Source: a virus (taxonomy: Duplodnaviria; Heunggongvirae; Uroviricota; Caudoviricetes). Taken from it: 14,786 nt of DNA. A program made the translations under genes and the position numbers. The notes below the pieces were generated by a model. The model saw nothing but the letters and a program-made list of their open reading frames with translations. It searched no databases and was not told the origin of the DNA. The DNA lies in IMG/VR virus record IMGVR_UViG_3300029068_000023; one strand, written 5' to 3'. Every line of letters starts with the position of its first letter. The stretch's first letter is position 1. Shown piece by piece: positions 1-14,786 of the stretch.

Positions 1-92
1 CAGCTGGCAAGCGAATGTAAAGACTGACTAAGCATGTAGTACCGAGGATGTAGGAATTTCGGACGCGGGTTCAACTCCCGCCAGCTCCACCA
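1..92 (+). ncRNA. ssrA: 3' portion of the tmRNA gene (ssrA), ending at the CCA terminus; 5' part lies outside the window
   Basis: Positions 1-92 match the sequence I recall for the 3' end of enterobacterial tmRNA, ending ggacgcgggttcaactcccgccagctccacca (61-92). A P4-type integrase follows directly, as at the E. coli ssrA locus. Confidence 0.88.
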
Positions 93-128
93 CTTGCTCT
101 TCCGGATACGTCCGGCGAAATACTGAAA

Positions 129-160
129 GCCCGCATGGCACAAGCTCTGCGGGCTTTTTT
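129..160 (+). terminator. Rho-independent terminator downstream of ssrA
   Basis: Perfect inverted repeat gcccgca (129-135) / tgcgggc (148-154) with a 12-nt loop, followed by T6 (155-160). Confidence 0.7.
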
Positions 161-204
161 GTGTCTCTCCTTGTCCGAGAACATCCGGCTAAATCCAGTG
201 ATTA

Positions 205-256
205 TTGGTATACATTTAGGTATACGGTAGGATGTATACCTAAACACGTATACCAA
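205..256. promoter_or_regulatory. Cluster of four GGTATAC heptamers upstream of int; probable integrase arm-type or Vis/AlpA binding sites
   Basis: ggtatac at 207-213 and 219-225 (direct, 12-bp spacing); gtatacc at 234-240 and 248-254 (inverted). The 23-mer ttggtatacatttaggtatacgg (205-227) recurs as ttggtatacgattaggtatacgc at 11029-11051. Confidence 0.5.
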
Positions 257-276
257 TTCATGATGGAGTAACTACA

Positions 277-1500
277 GTGGCACGGACAACACGTCCTCTG
301 ACCAACACTGAAATTCTGCGGACTAAAGCTTTAGAGAAGGATCTAACACTGCATGATGGCGAGGGGCTTTTCCTGATAGTGAAAACAAACGGGAAAAAAC
401 TCTGGCGTTTCCGTTATCAACGTCCAACAACAAAACAGCGAACAATGATGGGGCTTGGTGCCTTCCCTGCCTTATCGCTTGCTGATGCCCGAAGGCTAAG
501 GGCTGAATACCTTTCCTTATTAGCCAATGGAATTGACCCGCAAATACAAGCTGAAGTTGCAGAGGAGCAGCAGAAAATCGTGCTTAACAGTATTTTTTCA
601 GCAGTCGCCTCTAACTGGTTCTTGCTCAAAAGCAAAAGTGTTACTCCTGATTACGCAAAGGATATTTGGCGCTCATTGGAAAAAGACGTACTCCCTGCTA
701 TTGGCGAGATCCCCGTTCAGCAAATCAAAGCCCGAACACTAGTTGAAGCACTTGAACCAATCAAAGCTCGCGGAGCACTGGAAACAGTTCGTCGCCTAGT
801 ACAACGTATTAACGAAATAATGATTTATGCGATTAACACTGGTTTGATTGATACTAATCCAGCATCAGGCATTGGTATGGCTTTTGAAAAACCCAAAAAG
901 CAAAACATGCCAACACTGCGGCCTGAAGAGTTACCTAAGCTGATGCGTTCTTTAGCTATGTCAAATCTTTCTATTCCAACTCGCTGTCTAATTGAATGGC
1001 AACTCCTGACACTTGTACGCCCATCTGAAGCTGCCGGTGCTCGATGGGTAGAGATCGATCTTGAAACAAAACTATGGACAATTCCCGCAGAACGGATGAA
1101 AGCCAAGCGTGAGCACATTGTTCCTTTATCACCACAAGCGTTAAATATACTCGATGTTATGAAGCCAATTAGTGGCCACCGAGAATTCATTTTTCCCAGC
1201 AGATGTGACCCGAAGAAGTCAATGAACAGTCAAACGGCGAATGCTGCTTTGAAACGGATAGGTTATGGAGGTAAACTGGTTGCCCATGGAATGCGCTCAA
1301 TAGCCAGCACGGCAATGAATGAATTTGGATTCAACCCAGATGTAATTGAAGCTGCACTTGCTCATATTGATAAAAATGAAGTTCGACGCGCGTACAACCG
1401 CTCAGTTTATCTTACTCAGCGTAAAGAATTGATGGAATGGTGGGGGGAACAATGTGTTTCGCAATTCTCATCTATTAGAAATAAGTGGCCCGTCTCCTAA
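277..1500 (+). CDS. int: P4-family tyrosine integrase (site-specific recombinase), GTG start
   Basis: 407-aa ORF next to the tmRNA 3' end. N-terminal arm-binding-like region (DGEGLFLIV...KLWRFRY) and C-terminal catalytic region with HGMRS...AHID...RRAYNRSVYL (conserved R, H-x-x-R, Y). GTG at 277 preceded by ggag (264-267). Confidence 0.92.
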   Translation: MARTTRPLTNTEILRTKALEKDLTLHDGEGLFLIVKTNGKKLWRFRYQRPTTKQRTMMGLGAFPALSLADARRLRAEYLSLLANGIDPQIQAEVAEEQQKIVLNSIFSAVASNWFLLKSKSVTPDYAKDIWRSLEKDVLPAIGEIPVQQIKARTLVEALEPIKARGALETVRRLVQRINEIMIYAINTGLIDTNPASGIGMAFEKPKKQNMPTLRPEELPKLMRSLAMSNLSIPTRCLIEWQLLTLVRPSEAAGARWVEIDLETKLWTIPAERMKAKREHIVPLSPQALNILDVMKPISGHREFIFPSRCDPKKSMNSQTANAALKRIGYGGKLVAHGMRSIASTAMNEFGFNPDVIEAALAHIDKNEVRRAYNRSVYLTQRKELMEWWGEQCVSQFSSIRNKWPVS

Positions 1501-1543
1501 TTTGGTAGTTTTGTTCATTTGAGATACATAGCAAGGATTTGAA

Positions 1544-2644
1544 ATGTACATTCAAGATATTCCTAAAGATTCAAAATTTTGGGTTGTTCGATCTGGTGAT
1601 GGCGGTATGTTTTATGACCACTTTGTGCACAACTCCATAGCAGCTATTGGGCACATTGACGCTATGGAATTTAGCGATCAGACCCTCAGTAATAAAGATG
1701 AAGTGATTAAACTCGTTTATAATTACAAACAAACTTTGCTTGAAAAAAAGGAAACACTTGCATCTGCATCTAATAAAGCAGGCCAAGTTCTACGTTTCAT
1801 TAATGAAATGTCAGTCGGTGATATAATTATAACTCTAGATGCAAGGAGAATAGTGGTCGGCAGGATCATATCTGGTCCTTATAAAGATATGGAAAATGTA
1901 ACATTACTCAATGTTGATGGAACAACAGATGAAAAATTGCTTAAATTTACCCTTAGACGTAAAGTTGAATGGGGAAAAACGCAGTTTCGTGACAAACTTC
2001 CATTAGCCATAAATAATAGTTTCAGGGCTAATCAAACTGTTTTCTCAGCAAACGAGCACTGGAAAGAGCTTAATCACTGGTTATCTGTTGCATTTATATC
2101 AGATAATGAAGCTTATATTTCCTCACGGATTGAGCAAACAGAAGGGATTAACAATCTTGACATTGCTCAATACTCCATAATAATAAATAAAATTGAAGCT
2201 ATTGCTCAAACAATCGCTAACAATGACAACTATCATTTCGATGATGATAAATTATTATCTCTCTTTGAAGATACATATAAAGAACTAAGAAAAAGTAGAA
2301 CATTTACGGTAACGACACAACAGGTATTTCTTTCACCAGGAGATCTTTGGGCAAAAATATCTGGAAGCCGTAAAAAAAGCCTGTTAGTTATCTGCACATT
2401 TCTTATAATGTTCAATATTGAGCCATCTTTCGCAGATGAAAATGACAAAATATTTTTCGACAACAACTATGAAGCAATATCTTTATTAATTAATAAAGTA
2501 AAACATGATGAAAACTTTGAGGAAGTAAAAAATGGATTAGCATTAAAAGTTCCTGCACAAAAACTAAACACAAAAAACACCTCTACAAACCCCAATAAAA
2601 AACGCTATGATGATGTAGAACCAGACGACTTTGAAGGCATTTAA
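1544..2644 (+). CDS. Hypothetical protein (366 aa), cargo gene A of the int-cos hotspot; function unknown, candidate anti-phage protein
   Basis: Long ORF with RBS aagga (1533-1537) 6 nt before ATG 1544. DNA is very AT-rich relative to the flanking P4 backbone. No Walker A, HEPN, PLD, RT or TIR/SIR2 motifs found by eye; acidic C-terminal tail (YDDVEPDDFEGI). Confidence 0.75.
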   Translation: MYIQDIPKDSKFWVVRSGDGGMFYDHFVHNSIAAIGHIDAMEFSDQTLSNKDEVIKLVYNYKQTLLEKKETLASASNKAGQVLRFINEMSVGDIIITLDARRIVVGRIISGPYKDMENVTLLNVDGTTDEKLLKFTLRRKVEWGKTQFRDKLPLAINNSFRANQTVFSANEHWKELNHWLSVAFISDNEAYISSRIEQTEGINNLDIAQYSIIINKIEAIAQTIANNDNYHFDDDKLLSLFEDTYKELRKSRTFTVTTQQVFLSPGDLWAKISGSRKKSLLVICTFLIMFNIEPSFADENDKIFFDNNYEAISLLINKVKHDENFEEVKNGLALKVPAQKLNTKNTSTNPNKKRYDDVEPDDFEGI

Positions 2645-3302
2645 GAGGATGATGAAGTTCATAAAAAAATGGTGGGATAACCATGATAAATCTAATAATT
2701 TTTTATCAGGTATCCATTACATCGTCATTTCGCTAGCTATCATAATTGGTGGCGCGTGGTCGTTGTATACCTTTGACGCATTACAAATGGCCAAAAATGC
2801 GGAAATCCAACTAAAAAAGGCTAACGAAGATTTAAAACAAATAAAAGAGCAAATTAAGGGCACTGACTCTAGCAGTATTGCTATTAATGTTATCCCGTTA
2901 AAAACACAGCTAGGAATGATTATTAATGTAACCATAAAAAATAACGGCAAACGACCATTATCCTTTGACACATCCAAAGGAGCTTTAACTGTGTACAAAG
3001 TAAGCGCAAATGGCGATAAAGTTGAACAATCTCAATCTTTTACACCAAATCTCTATACATCTTTGAGAGATAAAAAACACTATCCAGAATCAAAAAGCAA
3101 ATCATTATCAAAGACACATGTTTTAATAGGAGCAGAAAAAACCCTTAGCTATATTGTTGGATTAAATAAGCCAGGCGTTTATTATATTACATTTAGGTCA
3201 ACACCAGATGATAATTTTGACACAGAAGAATTAAAAAACAAAAAACCTGTAGAATGGTTCGCTTCTTCATATGTTGAAATTACCCCACAAAAATATAAAT
3301 AA
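2631..3302 (+). CDS. Hypothetical single-pass membrane protein (about 217-223 aa), cargo gene B; start ambiguous (TTG 2631, ATG 2649 or 2652)
   Basis: Overlaps or abuts the stop of gene A (2642-2644), suggesting translational coupling. AAGAGG at 2643-2648 precedes ATG 2649/2652. Basic N-terminus (KRMMKFIKKWW), one hydrophobic helix (FLSGIHYIVISLAIIIGGAWSLYTF), then a coiled-coil-like stretch and a beta-rich C-terminal domain. Confidence 0.7.
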   Translation: MKAFKRMMKFIKKWWDNHDKSNNFLSGIHYIVISLAIIIGGAWSLYTFDALQMAKNAEIQLKKANEDLKQIKEQIKGTDSSSIAINVIPLKTQLGMIINVTIKNNGKRPLSFDTSKGALTVYKVSANGDKVEQSQSFTPNLYTSLRDKKHYPESKSKSLSKTHVLIGAEKTLSYIVGLNKPGVYYITFRSTPDDNFDTEELKNKKPVEWFASSYVEITPQKYK

Positions 3303-3609
3303 AAAAAATAAGAAGCACACAAATGTTTTTATAGCCTAAAAAACCGCCACAATATTTAACAGCCACATTAAAACACATGCATTATGTTAATGCATTAAAT
3401 GAAATTAATCCTCCATCCACTCCGTAAAAATAACACTATCATAAACACATCAATAGAGTCATCCAAAAACACAAAAATAACTTTAACTCAATAATATTAA
3501 ACATTCCCCTTTCTAATCACTACTCTAACTTATTGTCGTAGATGAAGCGAGCAAACTCAATTGCGCTCTCAGACTTTGAAAAAATTGAACACATCAACAT
3601 TTGCGCGCA

Positions 3610-3628
3610 GTGCTTTCCCCGCCTCGCC
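3610..3628. other. cos site (cohesive-end 19-mer of P2/P4-type phages)
   Basis: gtgctttccccgcctcgcc (3610-3628) is the exact reverse complement of the 19-nt P2/P4 cohesive end GGCGAGGCGGGGAAAGCAC as I recall it; it lies next to psu as in P4. A GC hairpin ccgccc/gggcgg plus T4 follows at 3628-3651. Confidence 0.7.
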
Positions 3629-3731
3629 CGCCCGCTTTGCAGGGCGGTTTTAATGCAGTTGCACTGACACGCTCAGGCCGCGCCGGGAATGGCGCGGTCT
3701 GCAGAAAATGAGGCAGGAAAACGCATGCAAA

Positions 3732-3762
3732 GCCATGCACCTTATCGATGCATGGCTTTTTT
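3732..3762. terminator. Bidirectional stem-loop terminator between the cargo region and psu
   Basis: gccatgca (3732-3739) / tgcatggc (3749-3756), followed by T6 on the plus strand (3757-3762) and preceded by an A-rich run (terminator for the minus-strand psu transcript, stop at 3793). Confidence 0.55.
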
Positions 3763-3792
3763 CAGTAAAAACGGGCGGATTTTCGGGGGATT

Positions 3793-4365
3793 TTACACAG
3801 ACTGATGTGATGCCAGTTGCGCACTTTTACGCGAAAAAATCATGTTCTGCGCAGGGGTGAATTTTTCACGGCTGTCGTCCACCGAAGCCGCGTCAGGCCT
3901 GAATCCGATGGCCGTTAAAATGTCGCTATCCTGTGCGGAATAATTAATTTTTTCACCCTTTGCAAGCCAGGACAGAAGGGCTTCACGCAGGGCATCTGTG
4001 GCACGCTGTATGGCACAGTTTCGGGCAATGGCCGTCAGTTCACTGTAGCCCATCAGCTCCGGTGCCAGTGCGGCCGCCAGTACTGTGCCGTGCTGCTGCA
4101 TAAAATCATTCAGCCGGTCGCGGATGCTGATGTGCTGAACGGCTTCATGCGAACGAATATAACGACCGGCGGCCTGATTCACCTGCCATTTTCTGACTTC
4201 GATAATATTGCGTAATTCGTCCAGGCGACTGACGTTTCTGCCTTCTCCTGACAGAAGCCGCAGGTATTCCTGTTCGGCCGCTGCCAGCTCATTTTTGCGT
4301 TGCAGCCATGCTGCTTTGTTATTCTGACAGGTGTCAAAGGCCTGCTGTAAGGCTGTGCTTTCCAT
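3793..4365 (-). CDS. psu: Polarity suppression protein Psu (Rho antagonist / capsid decoration), P4-type
   Basis: 190 aa, the length of P4 Psu; sequence MESTALQQAFDTCQNNKAAWLQRKNELAAAEQEYLRLL... matches my recollection of P4 Psu; last gene of the sid-delta-psu operon next to cos. Confidence 0.9.
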   Translation of the reverse strand: MESTALQQAFDTCQNNKAAWLQRKNELAAAEQEYLRLLSGEGRNVSRLDELRNIIEVRKWQVNQAAGRYIRSHEAVQHISIRDRLNDFMQQHGTVLAAALAPELMGYSELTAIARNCAIQRATDALREALLSWLAKGEKINYSAQDSDILTAIGFRPDAASVDDSREKFTPAQNMIFSRKSAQLASHQSV

Positions 4366-4438
4366 CGTTATCTCTTTCTCATCATGCTGAAGAATAAAAA
4401 TACGGTGTGCGGCGACGGCCGGGGTTAACCGGCAGCCC

Positions 4439-4939
4439 TCATTCCAGACGCAGCGAATATGATTGTGTTTTTAACCGTACTGGCGGCAGTTCCTGTTTTT
4501 CATGCAGGCGTTCTGCCAGTTCGTCCGGCGTGACCGGGCGGACAATGAAGCGGTTGATGGTCTGAAGCGTTTTAAACACCAGACCACAGCCCGGATCCGT
4601 GCACACATAAAAACGTTCAGTGACTTCCTGAGACAGACGCCGCGATGTTCTTGACAGTGCAAGGCCTTTACATCTCCGACAACAATATCCGGTAACAAGC
4701 ATTCTTTTCGGGCGTTTCATACTGCCGGAGGCTGACGTCAGTGAATCGCGGTATCTCTGTTTGCCTGAAATGTATTCCATTCCTGAATCTTTACTGTCAG
4801 AGAAAAAGCTTTCACTCGCTTCAAATGTCGCAGAGCAATAAATATTCCGGCACTGTGCAATCATTATCTTGGTGCCATCGTCCATGAAATGTGCGCGACG
4901 GGTGTGAGCAACATGTCCACACGACGGGCAGTAAATCAT
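4439..4939 (-). CDS. delta: Delta, Ogr-family zinc-finger late transcription activator (tandem Ogr-like domains)
   Basis: 166 aa; two Cys-rich Ogr-like halves (MIYCPSCGH...CRNIYC and CCRRC...YVCTDPGCG); start overlaps the sid stop (ATGA at 4936-4939). Confidence 0.9.
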   Translation of the reverse strand: MIYCPSCGHVAHTRRAHFMDDGTKIMIAQCRNIYCSATFEASESFFSDSKDSGMEYISGKQRYRDSLTSASGSMKRPKRMLVTGYCCRRCKGLALSRTSRRLSQEVTERFYVCTDPGCGLVFKTLQTINRFIVRPVTPDELAERLHEKQELPPVRLKTQSYSLRLE

Positions 4940-5670
4940 GACAGCAGTCCTCTGGCCTTAAGCTCTGCTCCCTGCTGGTCTATTTTGTCCTGCCACACCT
5001 TGCGCTGTGCCGGTGTGCCTGCCACCTCATAATCCATGTGCGGGAGTGTTGCCGCTGACAGTCCGGTCAGCCGGAGAACCGGCTCGCCGGTGAGGCTGAT
5101 TTGCATCTGTTTAATTTTCTGTTCCAGCGATGATTTCACCTGCTGCATGACAGCCTTTTCCGGTGCGACGTAGCCCTGATGGCCGGTGGTGTTGGCGAGC
5201 GGATTTTCCTGTACCAGGATGCTCAGATGCATTGCCCGGACAAGCGCCTCACAGGTTTCATTCAGGGCGTGTTCCAGCTCATGCTCTGCATACAGACTCA
5301 GAAGGTGATGATGTGCCTTCCGGTAGGCGGTGGCCGTGCTGTCACACGCCCCTTTCAGGCGTTCACGTTCAAAATTCAGCACCACGGCCAGATTGTCATA
5401 TTCCTGTACCAGCTCCCGGCGTGCCACGCGCTCAATGTGGCGCTGTTTCAGCTCGTCGCTCAGGACACCACCGGCTGCACGAAAGGCTGTGCGCCAGTCA
5501 TCAGCGTCATTTCCGTCGGCCTGCGCCAGCGCATTTTTTTCCTGCTCTGCCCGTTCAATGGCCGTGACGGTCTCATCCATCAGGCGGGCGTTCTCAAGGT
5601 GGGCGGCTCTGGCCTTTTCCAGTTGTGCCAGTGCGGGTTGCAGATATTCAGGGATGGTGTTGTCAGACAT
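4936..5670 (-). CDS. sid: Sid, external scaffold/capsid size determination protein
   Basis: 244 aa from ATG at 5670 (MSDNTIPEYLQPALAQLEKARAAHLENARLMD...), with strong SD GAGGAG 7 nt upstream on the minus strand. The ORF-track start at 5688 is a GTG without an SD and is probably an over-extension. Confidence 0.88.
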   Translation of the reverse strand: MSDNTIPEYLQPALAQLEKARAAHLENARLMDETVTAIERAEQEKNALAQADGNDADDWRTAFRAAGGVLSDELKQRHIERVARRELVQEYDNLAVVLNFERERLKGACDSTATAYRKAHHHLLSLYAEHELEHALNETCEALVRAMHLSILVQENPLANTTGHQGYVAPEKAVMQQVKSSLEQKIKQMQISLTGEPVLRLTGLSAATLPHMDYEVAGTPAQRKVWQDKIDQQGAELKARGLLS

Positions 5671-5695
5671 TTTCCGGCTCCTCGTCACTTCAGGT

Positions 5696-5760
5696 TAAGA
5701 AAATTGTGACGTACACCGGACAACAACACGACGCATTGCAGATGTGCCAGCCCTGACACA
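5696..5760 (-). promoter_or_regulatory. Psid-like late promoter with two TGT-N12-ACA activator (Delta/Ogr) sites
   Basis: TGT-N12-ACA at 5743-5760 and 5705-5722; centres 38 bp apart, fitting the -55 and -18 arrangement described for P4 late promoters if the sid transcript starts near 5696. Confidence 0.5.
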
Positions 5761-5839
5761 GGAGACTCATCCTCAGACCGGCAAGCCAGGAAAAGGTCGC
5801 AGGAAAAACCGGCTTACTGTTTGTTTTTTTATATTTTAC

Positions 5840-5943
5840 TGTTCACCTCTGTTCACCATAAGAAAAAAGATAAGTAATACAGTAAGTTAAATGGTGAACA
5901 ATCGCAGTAATGACTGTTCACCGTCTGTTCACCACTGTTCACC
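5840..5943. repeat. ori1-like cluster of six TGTTCACC iterons (alpha-protein binding sites)
   Basis: tgttcacc at 5840-5847, 5850-5857, 5915-5922, 5926-5933, 5936-5943 and inverted ggtgaaca at 5893-5900, in an AT-rich intergenic region between the divergent late promoters, about 4.8 kb from the crr repeats. Confidence 0.6.
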
Positions 5944-6102
5944 CGCTCATGGACTTTTTGTGCTGTTTATTACTGTTTGTTTTTATTAATTCGCCGGGAA
6001 TGAATAAGAAAAAACGATTTGTATTTCACTATAAAAATTACGAATTGCTTTAAGTGGCTTTAAATGACTTTAAGTGGAGATGAACAAAAAACACACAAGC
6101 TT

Positions 6103-6166
6103 TGTAAGGCTGCCGGAACAAATCCCCCCTGTTGCGTCTGCTGAAAATATTCACAAAATAAAGCGC
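6103..6166 (+). promoter_or_regulatory. PLL-like late promoter upstream of vis with a TGT-N12-ACA site
   Basis: TGT-N12-ACA at 6103-6120; a site centred at -55 would put the start near 6166, about 57 nt upstream of the vis ATG. Confidence 0.4.
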
Positions 6167-6222
6167 TACCCGAAGCCGGACGGACTTATCCGGTGCTGTA
6201 TGGACATTAACGAGGTAGCCCG

Positions 6223-6489
6223 ATGCAAGCTGTTTTTTCTTCCCCGTCTCCCGCCCCTGTGACGCCACTGATGCCGCTGCCGGACATCACACAGGAGCGT
6301 TTTTTACGTCTTCCGGAAGTGATGCACCTGTGCGGCCTGTCACGCTCGACCATCTACGAACTCATCCGTAAGGGGGAATTTCCGCCGCAGGTGAGTCTTG
6401 GCGGTAAAAATGTGGCCTGGCTGCACTCTGAAGTCACCGCATGGATGGCCGGACGCATTGCCGGACGCAAACGGGGGTACGACGCATGA
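6223..6489 (+). CDS. vis: Vis, AlpA-family excisionase-like DNA-binding regulator
   Basis: 88 aa (P4 orf88/Vis length); helix-turn-helix core [29 protein letters not shown] typical of the AlpA family; SD gagg 7 nt upstream of ATG 6223. Confidence 0.8.
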
Positions 6490-7085
6490 TGATACCCGCT
6501 CTGCAAAAACTCCCTTTTTCTGGCTTGCCTTTTTCCGGCATTTGCGGATATAGTTTTTCCGCTGCCGCAAAATCGGCAGCCGGGCGTGAGAACCCGAGCA
6601 ATTCACAGGCGACATATGACGCGCCACGCGTCTTTTTTTGTGTCGCAATCAATGCCACAGAGCGCCAGATTATGGTGTGGTGTGTGGTCAGTCGTGCAGA
6701 TGGCATTCCGTGCATCCTGCCCGCGTCCGCTCATTATGCCGCAGAGTCAATGGTAGCTCAGGCGGGGCAGCCTCCGGGCTGGCCGGTATCCTGTGAAGCC
6801 GGTATTCTCACCCCCGTCTGGGCTATCGCCATCGAGCGTGAGAACTCCGGCGATAGCGTTATTTGCTATTCACAGGAGGCTGCCATCATGGCTACAACCC
6901 TTACCCCCTCACACCCTGAATTTGTCTTTGTGTTTGCGGCTGTCCGTCGCGCAGACCGTCATCCCCGTATCTGTATGCTTCGCACCGTCGCCGGTGATGA
7001 ACGCAGTGCCCGCCGTTCCCTTGTCCGTGACTATGTGCTCTCCCTTGCTGCCCGTCTGCCGGTGGTGGAGGTGTCCCGTGCGTAA
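6486..7085 (+). CDS. 199-aa ORF coupled to vis by an ATGA overlap and spanning the immunity-like region; coding status uncertain
   Basis: ATG 6486 overlaps the vis stop; the ORF runs 600 bp to TAA 7083-7085. The N-terminal two-thirds is Cys-rich and overlaps structured RNA-like elements; the last 65 codons have their own strong RBS (aggagg 6874-6879, ATG 6888). Either the full ORF or only 6888-7085 may be the real gene. Confidence 0.4.
6584..6876 (+). ncRNA. Immunity-like structured region (candidate CI-RNA / seqA-seqB-seqC type transcription-termination control)
   Basis: Two copies of gcgtgagaac (6584-6593, 6836-6845), each followed by attcacagg (6601-6609, 6868-6876); a partially complementary ttctcac at 6805-6811; a 9-bp stem hairpin at 6822-6857 enclosing the second copy; an intrinsic terminator at 6618-6639. 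Assignment to individual P4 elements is not resolved. Confidence 0.35.
6618..6639 (+). terminator. Intrinsic terminator within the immunity-like region
   Basis: gacgcg (6618-6623) / cgcgtc (6627-6632) stem with 3-nt loop, followed by T7 (6633-6639). Confidence 0.55.
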
Positions 7086-7365
7086 TAAAAAAGCCCCTCA
7101 GACCGTCTCAGCACGTCATGACGCCCGTGAACACCTCAGCATTGAGGCTTACCATAAGCTCAACCGCGCCAGCGCCGTATCCCGGTTTGTTGGGGGTGAT
7201 TTGATTCACCGTGAACTCTCCGGCCTGCATCAGCTCTACATTCCGCATATTTTCAGCTACCTGAATGAAGATATTGATTTTGTGCTGAATGAGCTGAAAG
7301 CCAAAGGCCTGTGCCGCGATTTTCTCGCCCAGCAGAAAGACCGGGGAGACAGGACGCATGTTTGA
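7078..7365 (+). CDS. Epsilon, anti-repressor-like protein (derepresses helper P2 prophage in P4)
   Basis: 95 aa (P4 Epsilon length) from GTG 7078 with SD ggagg (7067-7071); begins [20 protein letters not shown]. The 190-aa ORF-track call from 6793 is an N-terminal over-extension. Start overlaps the stop of the preceding ORF. Confidence 0.7.
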
Positions 7366-7813
7366 TTTTCCCCAGCCCGGTGAGATTTACCGTTCTGCCG
7401 GTTTTCCCGATGTGGCCGTGGTCGGCATTCTGGAAGACGGTATTCCGTGGGAAATGCCGTACCGCTGCCCGGAAATTGTCTGGAACCCGTACCGCCGTAA
7501 ATTCAGTATCCTTGTGCGTATCCTCGCTGACGGGCGCACCACAGACATCCCGCTGGGGCGTTTTCTGCGGGAATTTACCTGTGACCGTCCTGACCTGTTT
7601 AAACGCAGCCCCGTAAACCGGCATGCGGTACTGAAAGAAATGGCCGGAGACCCGGAATTACAGAAATGGCGGGAGAAATATCTGGATATTTACCCGCAGG
7701 ACCCTGTTCCGGTCAGCCGGGCGGCACCGGTGGCGCGGGAATGGCGGGAAATTCCCCGCACGGAGCCTGACCCGGAAATCACCCCGGATAACAGTTACCG
7801 CAATTATCTGTAA
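7358..7813 (+). CDS. P4 orf151-like protein (151 aa), function unknown
   Basis: 151 aa exactly; ATG 7358 overlaps the end of epsilon; position in the left operon upstream of alpha. Confidence 0.75.
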   Translation: MFDFPQPGEIYRSAGFPDVAVVGILEDGIPWEMPYRCPEIVWNPYRRKFSILVRILADGRTTDIPLGRFLREFTCDRPDLFKRSPVNRHAVLKEMAGDPELQKWREKYLDIYPQDPVPVSRAAPVAREWREIPRTEPDPEITPDNSYRNYL

Positions 7814-7948
7814 TTAAAAAACGACACCCGAAAAATTAAATGTGCGTATTCGCGCAGGGATACGCACGTCTTCAGGAGACGCAGATATGCCTTATCAGTT
7901 AATGCAACCGGCACGGAATGCAGTCATCTGTCACAGGGAGGAAAGCAA

Positions 7949-8269
7949 ATGAAAACACCCTTACCGCCCGTCTTACGCGCAGCCCTTTACCGTCGTGCTG
8001 TCGCCTGTGCCTGGCTGACCGTGTGCGAACGTCAGCACCGCTACCCGCATCTCACCCTTGAATCACTGGAGGCGGCCATCGCCGCTGAGCTGGAAGGCTT
8101 TTATCTGCGCCAGCACGGTGAGGAAAAAGGGCGTCAGATAGCCTGTGCCCTGCTGGAAGATTTAATGGAATCCGGCCCCCTGAAGGCCGCGCCGTCGCTG
8201 TCCTTTCTCGGGCTGGTTGTGATGGATGAACTCTGTGCCCGTCACATAAAAGCGCCGGTACTGCACTGA
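7949..8269 (+). CDS. Hypothetical protein (106 aa) between orf151 and alpha
   Basis: Strong RBS gggagg 8 nt upstream of ATG 7949; stop 15 nt before the alpha start. I cannot confirm from memory whether P4 has an equivalent ORF here. Confidence 0.6.
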
Positions 8270-8283
8270 AGGAGAACAACACC

Positions 8284-10617
8284 ATGAAAATGAACGTAAC
8301 CGCCACCGTCAGCCATGCGCTCGGCCACTGGCCGCGTATTCTCCCGGCGCTGGGGATTCAGGTGCTGAAAAACCGTCATCAGCCCTGTCCGGTCTGTGGC
8401 GGGAGTGACCGCTTCCGTTTTGATGACAGGGAGGGGCGCGGCACCTGGTACTGCAATCAGTGTGGTGCCGGTGACGGCCTGAAACTGGTTGAAAAGGTGT
8501 TTGGTGTTTCCCCGTCCGACGCGGCCGCAAAGGTGGCTGCCGTGACCGGCAGCCTGCCCCCGGCTGACCCGGCAGTGACGGCTGCCGCCGGTGCTGAAAC
8601 AGACGCCGCCCGGAAGAACGCCGCCGCACTGGCACAAACCCTGATGGCGAAAACCCGTCCCGGAACCGGTAACGCCTACCTGACCCGCAAGGGCTTTCCC
8701 GGCCGGGAATGCCGGATGCTGACCGGCACACACAGAGCCGGTGGCGTGAGCTGGCGCGCCGGTGACCTTGTGGTGCCACTGTATGACGACAGCGGCGAAC
8801 TGGTTAACCTTCAGTTAATCAGTGCTGACGGCCGTAAGCGCACCCTGAAAGGCGGACAGGTCAGGGGCACCTGTCACACCCTTGAAGGACAGAATCAGGC
8901 CGGAAAACGTCTGTGGATAGCGGAGGGATACGCGACCGCACTTACCGTGCATCACCTGACCGGTGAAACGGTGATGGTGGCGCTTTCTTCCGTGAACCTC
9001 CTTTCTCTGGCCAGCCTTGCCCGGCAGAAGCACCCCGCCTGTCAGATTGTCCTTGCCGCTGACCGTGACCTCAGCGGTGACGGCCAGAAAAAAGCCGCCG
9101 CAGCCGCAGATGCGTGTGAAGGTGTTGTTGCCCTGCCGCCGGTCTTCGGTGACTGGAATGATGCCTTCACGCAGTACGGCGGGGAAGCCACCCGTAAGGC
9201 CATTTATGATGCCATCCGGCCACCGGCTGAAAGCCCGTTCGACACCATGAGCGAAGCGGAGTTTTCCGCCATGAGTACGAGCGAAAAGGCCATGCGTATC
9301 TATGAGCATTACGGCGAGGCGCTCGCGGTCGATGCCAACGGCCAGCTTCTGTCCCGTTATGAAAATGGTGTCTGGAAGGTGCTGCCACCACAGGACTTTG
9401 CCCGGGATGTGGCCGGGCTGTTTCAGCGGCTACGCGCGCCGTTCTCCTCCGGGAAGGTGGCCTCCGTGGTGGACACCCTGAAGCTGATTATTCCGCAGCA
9501 GGAAGCCCCCTCCCGCCGCCTGATTGGCTTTCGTAACGGCGTGCTCGACACGCAGAACGGCACGTTCCACCCGCACAGTCCGTCACACTGGATGCGCACC
9601 CTGTGCGATGTGGATTTCACCCCGCCGGTGGACGGTGAAACGCTGGAAACCCACGCTCCCGCGTTCTGGCGCTGGCTTGACCGTGCTGCCGGTGGTCGTG
9701 CGGAAAAACGCGACGTGATTCTGGCCGCACTGTTTATGGTGCTGGCAAACCGCTACGACTGGCAGCTCTTTCTGGAGGTGACCGGTCCCGGCGGCAGCGG
9801 CAAAAGTATCATGGCCGAAATAGCCACCCTGCTGGCCGGGGAGGATAACGCCACGTCGGCCACCATTGAGACGCTGGAATCCCCGCGTGAACGTGCCGCG
9901 TTAACTGGCTTCTCACTGATACGCCTGCCGGACCAGGAAAAATGGAGCGGCGACGGAGCCGGACTCAAGGCCATCACCGGCGGCGATGCGGTGTCCGTTG
10001 ACCCGAAATACCGGGATGCGTACTCCACGCACATCCCGGCGGTGATTCTGGCCGTGAACAATAACCCGATGCGCTTCACCGACCGCAGCGGCGGCGTGTC
10101 ACGCCGGCGGGTGATTATTCACTTCCCGGAACAGATAGCCCCGCAGGAGCGCGACCCGCAGCTTAAGGACAAAATCACCCGCGAGCTGGCGGTCATCGTG
10201 CGTCACCTGATGCAGAAGTTCAGCGACCCGATGCTCGCCCGGTCACTGCTTCAGTCCCAGCAGAACTCAGACGAGGCACTGAACATCAAACGGGATGCCG
10301 ACCCGACGTTTGATTTTATCGGCTATCTGGAAACCCTGCCGCAGACCAGCGGCATGTATATGGGGAACGCCAGTATCATCCCGCGTAATTACCGTAAATA
10401 CCTCTATCACGCCTATCTGGCCTACATGGAGGCAAACGGCTACCGGAATGTACTCAGTCTGAAAATGTTCGGGCTGGGGCTGCCGGTGATGCTGAAGGAA
10501 TACGGACTGAATTACGAGAAGCGCCATACCAAACAGGGGATACAGACCAACCTGACGCTGAAAGAGGAAAGCTACGGCGACTGGCTGCCAAAATGTGATG
10601 ACCCTGCAACAGCCTGA
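8284..10617 (+). CDS. alpha: Alpha, bifunctional primase-helicase replication protein (zinc-binding primase + superfamily-3 helicase + C-terminal origin-binding domain)
   Basis: 777 aa (P4 alpha length). N-terminal zinc motif CPVCGGSDRFRFDD...WYCNQCG, TOPRIM-like primase region, Walker A GPGGSGKS (near 9786-9809); SD aaggag upstream of ATG 8284. Confidence 0.95.
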   Translation: MKMNVTATVSHALGHWPRILPALGIQVLKNRHQPCPVCGGSDRFRFDDREGRGTWYCNQCGAGDGLKLVEKVFGVSPSDAAAKVAAVTGSLPPADPAVTAAAGAETDAARKNAAALAQTLMAKTRPGTGNAYLTRKGFPGRECRMLTGTHRAGGVSWRAGDLVVPLYDDSGELVNLQLISADGRKRTLKGGQVRGTCHTLEGQNQAGKRLWIAEGYATALTVHHLTGETVMVALSSVNLLSLASLARQKHPACQIVLAADRDLSGDGQKKAAAAADACEGVVALPPVFGDWNDAFTQYGGEATRKAIYDAIRPPAESPFDTMSEAEFSAMSTSEKAMRIYEHYGEALAVDANGQLLSRYENGVWKVLPPQDFARDVAGLFQRLRAPFSSGKVASVVDTLKLIIPQQEAPSRRLIGFRNGVLDTQNGTFHPHSPSHWMRTLCDVDFTPPVDGETLETHAPAFWRWLDRAAGGRAEKRDVILAALFMVLANRYDWQLFLEVTGPGGSGKSIMAEIATLLAGEDNATSATIETLESPRERAALTGFSLIRLPDQEKWSGDGAGLKAITGGDAVSVDPKYRDAYSTHIPAVILAVNNNPMRFTDRSGGVSRRRVIIHFPEQIAPQERDPQLKDKITRELAVIVRHLMQKFSDPMLARSLLQSQQNSDEALNIKRDADPTFDFIGYLETLPQTSGMYMGNASIIPRNYRKYLYHAYLAYMEANGYRNVLSLKMFGLGLPVMLKEYGLNYEKRHTKQGIQTNLTLKEESYGDWLPKCDDPATA

Positions 10618-10624
10618 CCCACCT

Positions 10625-10649
10625 GACCGGCATCTGCCGGTCTTTTTTT
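10625..10649 (+). terminator. Rho-independent terminator after alpha
   Basis: gaccggca (10625-10632) / tgccggtc (10635-10642) followed by T7 (10643-10649), immediately after the alpha stop (10615-10617). Confidence 0.6.
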
Positions 10650-10667
10650 ATCCCGACATCCCCCGAA

Positions 10668-10762
10668 GGTGAACAATCCACTGTTCACCCTTCACCGTAT
10701 ATTCACCCGTTATCACACTGAAATTAAAAGAGAAAAACGAAAGGTGAACAGTGTGAACAATC
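10668..10762. repeat. crr-like direct repeat 1 (cis replication region) containing TGTTCACC/GGTGAACA iterons
   Basis: ggtgaaca 10668-10675, tgttcacc 10682-10689, ggtgaaca 10743-10750, gtgtgaaca 10751-10759; about 85% identical by eye to the repeat at 10850-10944, with 182-bp periodicity; followed by an A9/T6 tract. Confidence 0.7.
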
Positions 10763-10849
10763 AAATCAAAAAAAAACTTTTTTCTCCCTGTGCGATTTTC
10801 AGTGCAGGGAATTAATCACCGGTATGAGTCACACCGGCAGAATGCCGGA

Positions 10850-10944
10850 GGTGAAGAATCGAATGTTCACCCTTCACCCATTATTCACCACCTATCATAC
10901 TGAAATAAAATGAGAAAAAAGAAAGGTGAACAGTGTGAACAGTT
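10850..10944. repeat. crr-like direct repeat 2
   Basis: ggtgaaga 10850-10857, tgttcacc 10864-10871, ggtgaaca 10925-10932, gtgtgaaca about 10933-10941; followed by an A8/T7 tract (about 10952-10966). Confidence 0.7.
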
Positions 10945-11028
10945 CTTCCGAAAAAAAATTTTTTTCCTGTACGATATAGCATCAATCCAAGTAAAAATGC
11001 GCTTTCATTTCACATTAACTTACAGCCA

Positions 11029-11051
11029 TTGGTATACGATTAGGTATACGC
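11029..11051. repeat. Right-end copy of the GGTATAC arm-type repeat pair
   Basis: ttggtatacgattaggtatacgc, with ggtatac at 11031-11037 and 11043-11049 (same 12-bp spacing as 207-213/219-225); 20 of 23 positions identical to 205-227. Confidence 0.5.
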
Positions 11052-11103
11052 ACAAAAACTGAATTAAACAAAATCATTAAAAATCAAAGCAATACAGTAG
11101 TTA

Positions 11104-11120
11104 TTCAAACTCCGCCAGCC
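11104..11120 (+). other. Candidate attR core: degenerate direct repeat of the ssrA 3' end
   Basis: ttcaaactccgccagcc (11104-11120) versus ssrA ttcaactcccgccagct (70-86): same orientation, matching blocks ttcaa / ctcc / gccagc with one indel pair. Located about 55 bp beyond the right arm-type repeats. Confidence 0.35.
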
Positions 11121-11251
11121 AATCATGATTGGACGGTGTAAGGACAACACCAACAAAAACAGGAAGTTAGAAGTCTCAGCAAAACACCGACCAGACGGTG
11201 AGGAGACATAAAAGGATACGCAAAGGAGCCGCGGCTCCTGATAACATGAAA

Positions 11252-11272
11252 GCCCACAGATGTGGGCTTTTT
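11252..11272. terminator. Stem-loop terminator downstream of the autotransporter gene (T-run on plus strand)
   Basis: gcccaca (11252-11258) / tgtgggc (11261-11267) plus T5 (11268-11272); a second palindrome ggagccgcggctcc lies at 11224-11237. Confidence 0.5.
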
Positions 11273-11281
11273 CGTTGATGG

Positions 11282-14200: not shown

Positions 14201-14755
14201 TCCGGAGGTCGTGGAAGCAATTAATGCGCCGCCGGATTGTTGCTCAACATGCTTAGCCTCACCACCGTCCTGAACCTCCAGAACGCCGCCATTATTAAGT
14301 CTGGTGCTATCTGTTTTAGCCTCCTTCTGGACAATCAGCTTACCGCCAGTATCAATGGTAGTATTTTTCGCCGAGGTTTTAGCCACTACCGTCAGTTCGC
14401 CGGTATTTTCCAGCACAACATAGTTAGCCTCCCCTCCGGTAATAGTGAAGTGAGAGAGCTTGTTGTATCCTTCGATATCAGTCCCTGCACCCGTGTTGGC
14501 AACTAAAGCACTGCCCGTCTCCTGGTTAACCCCATGTGCAATACCGCCGGTATAGACAATCAGCGAGCCTCCGGCGCTAATATTGCTGCCAATTGCCGTA
14601 CCATCTTTCTCAACAACCTGCCGGCTCCCGGAGGATATAATTGTTGTGTCAGCTTTCCCGCCGCTTTTGATATTTTGCGTTCCGCTGTTGATATTGGTGC
14701 GGCTTTGTTGAATAAATAAGATTTCGTGCGAACGACCCTGTAGCTGGCTGGATTT
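11282..14755 (-). CDS. Autotransporter (type Va) adhesin-like protein: beta-helical passenger, proline-rich linker, C-terminal beta-barrel; N-terminus not resolved in the window
   Basis: C-terminus ends ...AGVNWSF (aromatic terminal residue typical of outer-membrane beta-barrels); linker PNPDPIPNPKPDPKPDPKPDPNPKPDPTPDPTP; passenger has repeated Gly-rich beta-helix motifs. By my translation the frame is open from 14755 to 11282 (the ORF track starts it at GTG 14416), with an in-frame TGA at 14756-14758. Position next to the ssrA island resembles ypjA of E. coli K-12, not confirmed. Confidence 0.8.
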   Translation of the reverse strand, partial: KSSQLQGRSHEILFIQQSRTNINSGTQNIKSGGKADTTIISSGSRQVVEKDGTAIGSNISAGGSLIVYTGGIAHGVNQETGSALVANTGAGTDIEGYNKLSHFTITGGEANYVVLENTGELTVVAKTSAKNTTIDTGGKLIVQKEAKTDSTRLNNGGVLEVQDGGEAKHVEQQSGGALIASTTSGTLIEGTNSYGDAFYIRNSEAKNVVLENAGSLTVVTGSRAVDTIINANGKMDVYGKDVGTVLNSAGTQTIYASATSDKANIKGGKQTVYGLATEANIESGEQIVDGGSTEKTHINGGTQTVQNYGKAINTDIVSGLQQIMANGTAEGSIINGGSQVVNEGGLAENSVLNDGGTLDVREKGSATGIQQSSQGALVATTRATRVTGTRADGVAFSIEQGAANNILLANGGVLTVESDTSSDKTQVNMGGREIVKTKATATGTTLTGGEQIVEGVANETTINDGGIQTVSANGEAIKTKINEGGTLTVNDNGKATDIVQNSGAALQTSTANGIEISGTHQYGTFSISGNLATNMLLENGGNLLVLAGTEARDSTVGKGGAMQNLGQDSATKVNSGGQYTLGRSKDEFQALARAEDLQVAGGTAIVYAGTLADASVSGATGSLSLMTPRDNVTPVKLEGAVRITDSATLTLGNGVDTTLADLTAASRGSVWLNSNNSCAGTSNCEYRVNSLLLNDGDVYLSAQTAAPATTNGIYNTLTTNELSGSGNFYLHTNVAGSRGDQLVVNNNATGNFKIFVQDTGVSPQSDDAMTLVKTGGGDASFTLGNTGGFVDLGTYEYVLKSDGNSNWNLTNDVKPNPDPIPNPKPDPKPDPKPDPNPKPDPTPDPTPTPVPEKRITPSTPAVLNMAATLPLVFDAELNSIRERLNIMKASPHNNNVWGATYNTRNNVTTDAGAGFEQTLTGMTVGIDSRNDIPEGITTLGAFMGYSHSHIGFDRGGHGSVGSYSLGGYASWEHESGFYLDGVVKLNRFKSNVAGKMSSGGAANGSYHSNGLGGHIETGMRFTDGNWNLTPYASLTGFTADNPEYHLSNGMKSKSVDTRSIYRELGATLSYNMRLGNGMEVEPWLKAAVRKEFVDDNRVKVNSDGNFVNYLSGRRGIYQAGIKASFSSTLSGHLGVGYSHSAGVESPWNAVAGVNWSF
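12205..12315 (-). repeat. Short tandem repeat encoding the Pro-Asp-Pro-Lys linker of the autotransporter
   Basis: Tandem units of ggatttgggtct / ggctttggatcg type on the plus strand, giving the PNPKPDPKPDP repeats on the minus strand. Confidence 0.6.
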
Positions 14756-14786
14756 TCAGGCAATACGCACGCTTTCTGGCATCCCA

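What the first reader, a model, noticed from the sequence alone, without database searches (positions are those of the whole stretch)
1..11120. Apparently intact P4-like satellite at ssrA: P4-type backbone combined with an ssrA-targeting integrase
Seen: every module needed for a functional P4-type satellite is present with uninterrupted reading frames (int, vis, cos, psu/delta/sid, epsilon, alpha primase, ori iterons, crr), and several protein lengths equal those I recall for P4 itself. Established: P4 integrates at a leucine tRNA gene, while the E. coli ssrA locus hosts a P4-type integrase island. Inference: this element pairs a P4-like backbone with an integrase specific for ssrA and is probably still mobilisable by a P2-like helper, so its cargo would be mobile too.
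Basis: partly seen in the sequence, partly recalled or inferred. Interest (0 to 1): 0.5.

Follow-up and report, generated by a model that had tools for sequence, protein, structure and literature searches.

The report
P4-like phage satellite at ssrA
This is an ordinary, already catalogued kind of element: a near-copy of the phage satellite P4 whose integration module has been swapped for one that targets the tmRNA gene ssrA, complete in every gene but with a worn right-hand attachment site.

Summary
Window 3629-10964 matches phage P4 nt 11624-4291 at 98.5% identity. All nine P4 reading frames there keep their exact P4 lengths with no stops: psu, delta, sid, vis, the cI-region ORF, epsilon, orf151, cnr and alpha. 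All 16 alpha-binding iterons, the crr, the 19-nt cos end, the CI RNA and the helper-activator sites are conserved.

P4's gop-beta-cII-int-attP block is replaced. In its place are a P4-family integrase (36% identical to P4 Int, 62% to CP4-57 IntA), arm-type repeats on both arms, and a low-GC two-gene cargo next to cos.

The element (about 11,034 bp) lies between the ssrA 3' end and ypjA. About 245 of 5,426 complete E. coli genomes carry the same design. Integrase exchange and the int-psu hotspot are both published.

One blemish: the displaced ssrA end at attR has shrunk from TCCACCA to CA. Excision would therefore leave a broken tmRNA gene and must use an altered core half-site. Strain WB61 carries exactly that excision scar, so recombination remains possible. 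Mobilisation by a P2 helper is likely but untested. Low novelty.

The parts
1..92 (+). 3' part of ssrA (tmRNA gene). Its last 7 nt (TCCACCA, 86-92) are supplied by the element.
   Evidence: Rfam RF00023, 77 bits, model positions 278-374. The sequence is identical to the ssrA end in an empty-site strain.
79..86 (+). attL crossover region: CCGCCAGC is shared with attR, and the following T at 86 marks the 3' limit of the exchange.
   Evidence: attL/attR/attB comparison. The WB61 and DTU-1 excision scars and the perfect attR of MCJCHV-1 place the exchange 3' of CTCCC and 5' of the T.
93..160 (+). Element-supplied ssrA trailer with a hairpin and T-run terminator (129-160).
   Evidence: Read directly from the sequence. 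Conserved with the CP4-57 trailer.
204..256 (+). P' arm-type integrase sites: two direct repeats (TTGGTATAC, TAGGTATAC) and two inverted copies. A TCCGAG...AAATCC block lies upstream, at about 175-202.
   Evidence: the repeat finder D11/D14. The layout is collinear with the P' arms of P4 and CP4-57. The repeats are identical in four other ssrA P4-like elements.
277..1500 (+). int: a P4-family tyrosine integrase, 407 aa, with a GTG start.
   Evidence: Pfam domains; NCBIfam NF007246, 587 bits. It is 36% identical to P4 Int and 62% to K-12 IntA. R248, H337, R340, H363 and Y373 are invariant.
1544..2644 (+). Cargo gene A: a DUF8426 (PF28530) protein of 366 aa, function unknown.
   Evidence: Homologues carry PF28530. 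Only the N-terminal half matches the PADLOC candidate PDC-S02. GC is about 0.32.
2649..3302 (+). Cargo gene B: 217 aa, with an N-terminal hydrophobic segment read by eye as a transmembrane helix, followed by a segment that looks beta-rich by eye.
   Evidence: Translation. Homologues lie next to gene A in several genera.
3600..3700 (-). cos region. The 19-nt cohesive end GGCGAGGCGGGGAAAGCAC is at 3628-3610, with a conserved GCGCGC flank on the cargo side and P4-identical sequence on the psu side.
3793..4365 (-). psu (190 aa).
   Evidence: Same length as P4, 4 substitutions.
4439..4939 (-). delta (166 aa, two Ogr-type zinc fingers).
   Evidence: All eight zinc-finger Cys are kept. The C72G/G73S difference from P4 is shared by six natural elements.
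4936..5670 (-). sid (244 aa).
   Evidence: One substitution against P4.
5705..5760 (.). Two TGT-N12-ACA activator sites upstream of sid (Psid region).
   Evidence: Identical to P4.
5840..6077 (.). ori: six type I iterons (5840-5943) and three type II repeats (6048-6077).
   Evidence: All are identical to the features annotated in P4.
6103..6120 (+). TGT-N12-ACA activator site upstream of vis (PLL region).
   Evidence: The half-sites are kept; there are three spacer SNPs against P4.
6223..6489 (+). vis (orf88, AlpA-family excisionase/regulator, 88 aa).
   Evidence: One substitution against P4. 36% identical to K-12 AlpA.
6548..6833 (+). P4 immunity region: CI RNA target sequences (6548-6638) and the CI RNA itself (6746-6833).
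   Evidence: Rfam c4-a1b1, isrK and C4, all above their gathering scores.
7078..7365 (+). epsilon (95 aa, helper derepression).
   Evidence: Identical to P4.
7358..8269 (+). orf151 (7358-7813) and orf106/cnr (7949-8269).
   Evidence: Same lengths as P4; 3 and 0 substitutions respectively.
8284..10617 (+). alpha primase-helicase (777 aa), followed by its terminator at 10625-10649.
   Evidence: 5 substitutions against P4; the terminator is identical.
10663..10964 (.). crr: two 120-bp repeats carrying ten type I iterons.
   Evidence: the repeat finder D2. All iterons are identical to P4.
11028..11050 (+). P-arm arm-type integrase sites (TTGGTATAC, TAGGTATAC).
   Evidence: the repeat finder D14, 91% identical to the P' copy.
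11103..11121 (+). attR: TTCAAACTCCGCCAGC from the element, then CA. That CA is all that remains of the displaced chromosomal TCCACCA.

Best explanation
The region is a P4-type phage satellite integrated at the 3' end of ssrA.

**Helper-exploitation and replication part.** About 7.3 kb is essentially P4 itself. By analogy with P4 (established knowledge, not tested here):
- The CI RNA keeps the prophage silent.
- Epsilon derepresses a P2-like helper.
- Delta and the helper activators switch on late promoters through the TGT-N12-ACA sites.
- Alpha replicates the excised circle from ori and crr.
- Sid and Psu build and decorate small capsids.
- The helper terminase cuts at cos.

**Integration module.** The whole module has been exchanged for one related to CP4-57: int, both att arms and the core. 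Its integrase recombines inside CCGCCAGC in the acceptor-stem strand of ssrA. The element supplies the last 7 nt of ssrA plus a trailer and terminator.

**Cargo.** Between int and cos, in the published variable hotspot of P4-like satellites, sits a two-gene cassette of unknown function. It is probably an accessory or anti-phage cassette.

**State of the element.** Every gene and every element-borne cis site is intact. The chromosomal half of attR has decayed. Excision is therefore probably less efficient than for fresh integrants and would inactivate ssrA. The excised circle itself would carry a perfect attP.
For: **Shown**
- 98.5% identity to P4 over 7,334 nt, with all reading frames intact.
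- Iterons, terminator, cos and activator sites conserved.
- CI RNA and its targets found by Rfam.
- 53 synonymous against 18 non-synonymous codon changes relative to P4.
- Integrase domains and catalytic residues present.
- Arm repeats on both arms, collinear with the P4 and CP4-57 arms.
- The empty attB is known from about 2,650 genomes.
- At least 42 complete genomes carry the same satellite design with a perfect attR.
- Excision scars in WB61 and DTU-1 fix the crossover. They agree with the published one-base change after CP4-57 excision (PMC3105296) and the U deletion after CP4So excision (PMC5148205).
- Hotspot position: homology to sister elements stops at window position 1404-1449 in the 3' part of int (corresponding to int codons 376-391) and resumes at window 3602-3603, a few nt before cos. 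Other elements carry NACHT, restriction endonuclease or hypothetical genes there.

**Inferred**
- The roles of individual P4 genes, taken from the P4 literature.
Against: - attR keeps only CA of TCCACCA, so the core half-site to the right of the crossover differs from that of active integrants.
- No excised or packaged form of this integrase type was found in IMG/VR, JGI metagenomes or GTDB genomes.
- Vis is P4's own, while Int and the att arms are heterologous. Their compatibility is not shown.
- The helper phage is not visible in the window.
- Cargo function is unknown: no Pfam family of known function, no PDB sequence match, and no structural match.
Confidence: 0.85

Rival explanations
1. 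The satellite is locked in. Decay of the chromosomal half of attR has made it excision-defective in practice. It now persists as a vertically inherited defence or accessory island. Its cargo is renewed by homologous recombination with incoming satellites rather than by its own transfer.
For: - The attR remnant is shortened in many genomes. At least 35 have the window's alignment span, taken as the CA form (sequence-verified only in the window and ATCC 8739). At least 23 have the CCA-form span.
- Elements with the same decayed attR carry different cargo and different int alleles: window against ATCC 8739, and N61 against CFS3292.
- Excision would destroy ssrA.
Against: - All genes remain intact, with a strong excess of synonymous changes.
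- WB61 shows a precise attL x attR event on exactly this attR form.
- K-12 CP4-57 still excises although its attR lacks the T (PMC3105296).
- Damage to ssrA does not matter in a cell that the helper is about to lyse.
Confidence: 0.3
2. It is a decayed cryptic prophage remnant comparable to CP4-57, with no remaining satellite function.
For: It occupies the same chromosomal site as CP4-57, and its integrase is 62% identical to IntA.
Against: - There are no pseudogenes.
- All P4 genes are full-length, and cos, ori and crr are conserved.
- At 11,034 bp it is 95% of P4's own 11,624-bp genome.
- CP4-57 shares only the integration module.
Confidence: 0.03
3. It is an assembly chimera that joins P4 DNA to an unrelated ssrA island.
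For: None beyond the sharp changes in GC content and similarity at window positions 1500 and 3600.
Against: The same junctions occur in independent complete genomes at 99% identity (Ec1120, S1-INA-02-B). The same architecture occurs in about 245 genomes.
Confidence: 0.01

Closest known systems
Satellite phage P4 (X51522 / NC_001609)
   Same: - 98.5% nucleotide identity over P4 nt 4291-11624.
- Identical gene order and protein lengths for psu, delta, sid, vis, epsilon, orf151, cnr and alpha.
- Identical iterons, crr layout and cohesive end.
   Different: - P4 nt 30-4290 (gop, beta, cII, int, attP) is absent.
- The integrase is only 36% identical and targets ssrA instead of leuX.
- The arm repeats are GGTATAC-type instead of GGGGGCAT-type.
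P4-like satellites of Enterobacterales (Moura de Sousa & Rocha, PMC8628076; Rousset et al., PMC9122126)
   Same: - All seven core components are present in the canonical order.
- The variable cargo lies between int and psu, next to cos.
- This very cargo pair is listed in Rousset's supplementary file 2, the list of P4-hotspot loci.
- About 245 complete E. coli genomes, including ATCC 8739, carry sister elements at ssrA.
   Different: - Nothing differs in kind.
- This copy has a rare int allele, about 84% nucleotide identity to the common one. Among the loci examined it is shared only with Ec1120 and S1-INA-02-B; in the ranked listing the next hit after Ec1120 is at 83%.
- It also has a strongly shortened attR remnant.
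Cryptic prophage CP4-57 of E. coli K-12 (IntA/AlpA, at ssrA)
   Same: - Same attB and same crossover region.
- The element supplies the ssrA 3' end and a related trailer and terminator.
- Int is 62% identical to IntA.
- The attR also carries a damaged ssrA end.
   Different: - CP4-57 has no P4 helper-exploitation or replication genes and no cos.
- Its arm repeats differ (GGCCCA-type).
- AlpA is only 36% identical to the Vis encoded here.
CP4So of Shewanella oneidensis (PMC5148205)
   Same: A P4-type integrase element at ssrA whose excision leaves a mutated ssrA 3' end (loss of the wobble U).
   Different: A different genus, a 36-kb cryptic prophage rather than a P4 satellite, and the ssrA change is a single nucleotide.

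Membership tests
P4-like satellite (SatelliteFinder Type A definition, PMC8628076) | All seven core components are co-localised: integrase, psu, delta, sid, alpA/vis, epsilon and alpha. | tested here: met
   All seven are found as intact ORFs.
P4-like satellite (SatelliteFinder Type A definition, PMC8628076) | Canonical order int - (cargo) - psu - delta - sid - vis - epsilon - alpha, a size near 10-11 kb, and a chromosomal location. | tested here: met
   The order is as in P4. The distance between the att cores is 11,034 bp. The element lies between ssrA and ypjA.
Phage P4 itself (same element as X51522) | Near-identity over the whole 11,624-bp genome, including int and attP for leuX. | tested here: not met
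   Only P4 nt 1-29 and 4291-11624 match. The int-attP-gop-beta-cII block is replaced. Int is 36% identical.
Packageable by a P2-type terminase | A P2/P4 cos: the 19-nt cohesive end with its conserved flanks. | tested here: met
   The 19-mer is exact. The psu-side flank is P4-like. The cargo-side GCGCGC is shared by P4 and all six natural elements compared. Whether this flank is sufficient could not be checked, because the Ziermann & Calendar 1990 paper is not held.
Replication-competent P4 replicon | Alpha primase-helicase plus its iterons in ori and crr. | tested here: met
   Alpha is 777 aa with 5 substitutions. All 16 type I iterons and all 3 type II repeats are identical to P4.
Excision-competent integrated element (tyrosine recombinase) | Intact integrase with its catalytic residues, and arm-type sites on both arms. 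| tested here: met
Excision-competent integrated element (tyrosine recombinase) | attL and attR have matching crossover regions and intact flanking core half-sites. | tested here: inconclusive
   The 8-nt CCGCCAGC is identical in attL and attR. The sequence immediately 3' of it in attR is CAATCAT instead of TCCACCA. One natural genome (WB61) carries the corresponding excision scar.
Excision-competent integrated element (tyrosine recombinase) | A cognate recombination directionality factor. | not testable with these tools
   An intact P4-type vis is present. All five annotated sister elements at ssrA encode the same Vis protein accession. Its binding to this att region is unknown. A conserved TCCGAG...AAATCC block shared with the P4 and CP4-57 arms is only a candidate site.
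CP4-57-type ssrA integration module | A P4-family integrase next to ssrA, an att core in the last 15 nt of ssrA, and an element-supplied 3' end and trailer. | tested here: met
Known anti-phage defence system (cargo) | A full-length match to a validated defence family. | tested here: not met
   Only the N-terminal half of protein A matches the unvalidated PADLOC candidate PDC-S02. Nothing matches in the local Pfam copy (only a sub-threshold DUF4352 hit for protein B) or NCBIfam; homologues of protein A carry the uncharacterised PF28530/DUF8426. There is no PDB sequence match and no Foldseek match.

The most novel reading that the evidence does not exclude
The 7 nt of displaced ssrA at attR is a local mutation hotspot rather than a neutral relic. 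At least six length alleles occur there, next to a 45-nt flank that differs at only one position in each of two of the twelve loci read out. The hotspot might arise from abortive integrase cleavage, or from selection to lock the satellite in. Satellite excision would then be coupled to inactivation of tmRNA in the induced cell. That coupling could influence the helper or competing phages that depend on trans-translation.
Probability: 0.08. Interest if true: 0.45.

Novelty: already known. Interest (0 to 1): 0.15.

Why it matters
This is a clean example of how P4-like satellites evolve by modules. A conserved helper-hijacking and replication core carries an exchangeable integrase/att module and an exchangeable cargo slot beside cos. 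Both points are already published, and this architecture is common in sequenced E. coli.

Two modest points of practical interest remain:
- Excision of many ssrA-borne satellites would leave a broken tmRNA gene.
- The DUF8426 plus putative membrane-protein cassette recurs in satellite hotspots and in prophage accessory-gene slots, yet is untested as a defence system.

Tried and rejected
**Crossover models rejected**
- A crossover in the T-loop (TTCAA) is rejected. WB61 and DTU-1 keep CTCCC from attL, and attR carries ACTCC-G from the element.
- A crossover in the terminal CCACCA is rejected. The scars inherit the damaged 3' nucleotides from attR. This matches the published one-base change after CP4-57 excision (PMC3105296).

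**Searches that found nothing**
- The predicted attP junction gave 0 hits in IMG/VR, JGI metagenomes and GTDB genomes.
- A shorter pattern gave only one relevant hit, an integrated perfect attR.

**Cargo function**
- The local Pfam copy gave nothing for protein A and only a sub-threshold DUF4352 hit for protein B; NCBIfam and PDB sequence searches gave nothing. The homologue search assigns protein A's family to the uncharacterised PF28530/DUF8426.
- An AlphaFold model of protein A (mean pLDDT 68.8) had no Foldseek PDB match better than E = 0.1.

**Vis binding sites**
- A 9-mer search for a motif shared by the PLL region, P4 attP and this element's arms gave only A/T-rich chance matches.

**Papers not held**
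- Papers tried directly and not held: Williams 2003 and Wang 2009. Calì 2004 turned up only as a reference in another paper. Kirby 1994 and Ziermann & Calendar 1990 were not retrieved; one search aimed at the latter failed on a syntax error.

**False alarms**
- The apparent loss of a Cys in Delta (C72G) is not a defect. It lies outside both zinc fingers, and all natural elements share it.
- An apparent break in ypjA at 14416 is an artefact of the ORF listing. The frame is open as far as 14700.


Full report
**What is there**

The window opens inside ssrA. Rfam places the last 97 model positions of tmRNA at 1-92. ARAGORN finds nothing because the gene is cut by the window edge.

The features run in this order:
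- An integrase gene at 277-1500.
- Two low-GC genes at 1544-3302. GC here is about 0.29-0.35, against 0.50-0.64 further on.
- A 7.3-kb block matching phage P4.

BLAST against the phage collection, and a direct alignment, show that window 3629-10964 equals P4 (X51522) nt 11624-4291 on the opposite strand at 98.5% identity. There are 110 differences. The only indels are two single-base insertions in A/T runs of the crr.

**Checking each module against P4**

Using the P4 record's own annotation, all nine P4 coding sequences in this block map to reading frames of exactly the same length. None has an internal stop.

| Gene | Amino-acid changes vs P4 |
|---|---|
| epsilon | 0 |
| orf106/cnr | 0 |
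| cI-region ORF | 0 |
| sid | 1 |
| vis | 1 |
| delta | 2 |
| orf151 | 3 |
| psu | 4 |
| alpha | 5 |

Further points:
- Across the coding sequences, 53 changed codons are synonymous and 18 are not.
- The two Delta changes (C72G, G73S) lie outside the eight zinc-finger cysteines. Six other natural elements share them, so the P4 reference is the odd one out.
- All 16 type I iterons are identical to P4: six in ori at 5840-5943 and ten in crr at 10663-10964.
- The three type II repeats and the alpha terminator are also identical to P4.
- The TGT-N12-ACA activator sites upstream of sid and of vis keep their half-sites.
- Rfam finds the CI RNA (C4 family, 6746-6833) and its target sequences (6548-6638) above their gathering scores.
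- The 19-nt cohesive end GGCGAGGCGGGGAAAGCAC is exact at 3628-3610.
- The psu side of cos matches P4. On the other side only about 7-10 nt (GCGCGC) are conserved. This is also where six sister elements and P4 itself diverge.
- Rousset et al. describe this same cos-proximal boundary of the hotspot (PMC9122126).

**What replaced P4's left arm**

P4 nt 30-4290 (gop, beta, cII, int, attP) is absent.

The integrase:
- It has the three domains of P4-family integrases.
- It is 36% identical to P4 Int and 62% identical to IntA of the K-12 cryptic prophage CP4-57.
- The catalytic Arg, His-x-x-Arg, His and Tyr are invariant in a seven-sequence alignment.

The att arms:
- Arm-type repeats (TTGGTATAC, TAGGTATAC) occur twice directly and twice inverted between ssrA and int. 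They occur twice more just inside the right end at 11028-11050.
- The ssrA-proximal arm is collinear with those of P4 and CP4-57. All three have a conserved TCCGAG...AAATCC block, then two direct arm repeats, then an inverted copy.
- The repeat sequence itself differs in each element.

So the whole integration module was exchanged for a related one of the same family. Moura de Sousa & Rocha report that integrases of P4-like satellites are often exchanged (PMC8628076).

**Boundaries and the attachment sites**

About 2,650 of 5,426 complete E. coli genomes have an empty site. There ssrA is followed directly by ATCATGATTGG and then ypjA.

In the window:
- attL reads ...AACTCCCGCCAGCTCCACCA, followed by element DNA.
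- attR reads ...TTCAAACTCCGCCAGC-CA-ATCATGATTGG.

Sister elements with the same right arm show a series at this junction:

| Remnant after GCCAGC | Example strains | Genomes (at least) |
|---|---|---|
| TCCACCA (perfect) | MCJCHV-1 | 42 |
| CCACCA | Ec1120, S1-INA-02-B, H7; also K-12 CP4-57 | 17 |
| CCCCA | MLI023K2 | 1 |
| CCCA | ETEC1703 | 1 |
| CCA | N61, CFS3292 | 23 |
| CA | this window, ATCC 8739 | 35 |

Most of these counts come from alignment span lengths. Each class was verified by reading one or more sequences. Several listed genomes are repeat assemblies of the same strain, so the counts are not independent lineages.

Two genomes fix the crossover:
- The laboratory strain DTU-1 has ssrA ending ...CCCGCCAGCCCACCA.
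- The wild-bird isolate WB61 has ...CCCGCCAGC-CAATCATG.
- Each is the left half of attL joined to the right half of a decayed attR.

This agrees with two published observations:
- CP4-57 excision leaves ssrA with a one-base change (PMC3105296).
- CP4So excision in Shewanella deletes the wobble U (PMC5148205).

From this I draw three conclusions:
- The exchange occurs inside CCGCCAGC (window 79-86 and 11112-11119).
- The element supplies the final TCCACCA of the working ssrA.
- The displaced chromosomal copy at attR is free to decay.

The element spans 11,034 bp between the two cores, which is 95% of P4's length.

**Consequence for 'intact and mobilisable'**

Everything the element carries with it is intact. 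The attP regenerated by excision would be perfect, because the damaged nucleotides stay in the chromosome.

The half-site immediately right of the crossover in attR now reads CAATCAT instead of TCCACCA. Excision would also leave ssrA without TCCAC, so there would be no complete acceptor stem or CCA end.
- That cost is irrelevant in a cell about to be lysed by a helper.
- It would select against spontaneous curing.
- WB61 shows that this attR form has recombined at least once.
- I could not find an excised junction in IMG/VR, JGI metagenomes or GTDB genomes.

Vis is P4's own protein, with one substitution, and is paired here with a heterologous integrase. All five annotated sister elements at ssrA encode the same Vis protein accession. 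This suggests the pairing works, but it is not proof.

I put functional excision and transfer with a P2 helper at roughly 0.6. The locked-in alternative stands at 0.3.

**Cargo**

The two genes occupy the published int-psu hotspot. Sister elements carry other genes at the same place: a NACHT protein, a restriction endonuclease or other hypothetical genes.

The boundaries of homology to sister elements are:
- On one side it ends in the 3' part of int, at window 1404-1449. The integrase C-terminal tail beyond WWG therefore differs with each cargo.
- On the other side it resumes at window 3602-3603, a few nt before the cohesive end at 3610.

The two proteins:
- Protein A (366 aa) belongs to DUF8426 (PF28530). 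It has a partial N-terminal match to the unvalidated PADLOC candidate PDC-S02.
- Protein B (217 aa) has an N-terminal hydrophobic segment that I read by eye as a transmembrane helix.

Where the pair occurs:
- In the same hotspot of P4-like satellites in Salmonella. Its 90%-identity cluster is recorded on 757 contigs, and the two places examined were P4-like satellites.
- In a P4-like element next to smpB in Pectobacterium.
- In an accessory-gene slot among the tail genes of Providencia prophages.
- In Rousset's supplementary file 2, which lists the P4-hotspot loci, as 'hypothetical + hypothetical'.

Sequence and structure searches gave no functional lead. A role in phage defence or exclusion is inferred from context only.

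**Comparison and verdict**

The element works like P4 and passes the definition of a Type A P4-like satellite. It is not P4 itself, because the integration and cargo third of the genome differs. Its integration module belongs with CP4-57.

How common it is:
- Roughly 245 complete E. coli genomes carry the same design at ssrA, among them ATCC 8739.
- Two genomes (Ec1120, S1-INA-02-B) carry this same int allele and cargo at 99% identity.
- Modular integrase exchange and the cos-adjacent hotspot are published.

The finding is real and well read by the first stage, but ordinary. The only points beyond the literature I could access are the graded decay of the displaced ssrA end, the natural excision scar in WB61, and the wide distribution of the untested DUF8426 cassette.

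Noticed in passing
L014 (E. coli WB61, NZ_CP020025.1) around locus position 440-460: ssrA ends ...AACTCCCGCCAGC and is followed directly by CAATCATGATTGG. This is the exact scar expected from excision of an ssrA element whose attR had decayed to the window's form. This wild isolate should therefore lack a functional tmRNA 3' end.
   Followed up: partly
window 11112-11121, and the same junction in L002, L006-L013: The 7 nt after GCCAGC at attR occurs in at least six length forms: TCCACCA, CCACCA, CCCCA, CCCA, CCA and CA. The 45 nt of downstream flank read out differs at only one position in each of two of the twelve loci compared. The window shares the CA form with ATCC 8739 but has the neighbouring arm SNPs of Ec1120. 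The shortening is therefore either recurrent or moved by recombination.
   Followed up: partly
window 277-1500 compared with L007-L010: The window's int allele is only about 84% identical in nucleotides (86-89% in protein) to the int of other E. coli ssrA P4-like satellites. The rest of the element is 98-99% identical. The integrase C-terminal tail after WWG differs with every cargo, so the hotspot boundary lies inside the 3' end of int.
   Followed up: partly
L017 and L018 (Providencia prophages) 8001-9749; L016 (Pectobacterium) 6745-9752; L019/L020 (Salmonella): The DUF8426 plus putative membrane-protein gene pair also sits among the tail genes of siphovirus-type prophages, next to umuDC-like or YafO-toxin genes. 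It is also found in P4-like satellites of Salmonella and Pectobacterium. The Pectobacterium element shows no Psu-family gene (none of its called genes hits Pfam Psu) and has a PhdYeFM/ParE pair after the primase.
   Followed up: partly
window 14701-14786: The similarity to ypjA stops at 14700. The last 86 nt are the end of an IS5-family insertion sequence, with 100% matches under 'IS5 family transposase' in many genomes and plasmids. So ypjA is interrupted in this strain. Its frame is open from 14700 down to the stop at 11282.
   Followed up: yes
window 6098-6115: Six SNPs against P4 cluster in and just upstream of the TGT-N12-ACA site ahead of vis. Three are in the spacer and three immediately 5'. 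The half-sites are unchanged. Ec1120 has the window's spacer but P4's 5' bases.
   Followed up: partly
L001 (P4 reference) delta codons 72-73 and alpha codons 104 and 775: At these positions the 1990 P4 reference differs from the window and from all six natural elements compared. This suggests strain-specific changes or old sequencing errors in X51522.
   Followed up: partly
L010 (MCJCHV-1) 296-330: In this perfect-attR sister element, the element-supplied sequence after ssrA begins AATCATGAT. That copies the chromosomal flank of attB and extends attP/attB identity to about 23 nt. The window's element has CTTGCTCTT there.
   Followed up: no
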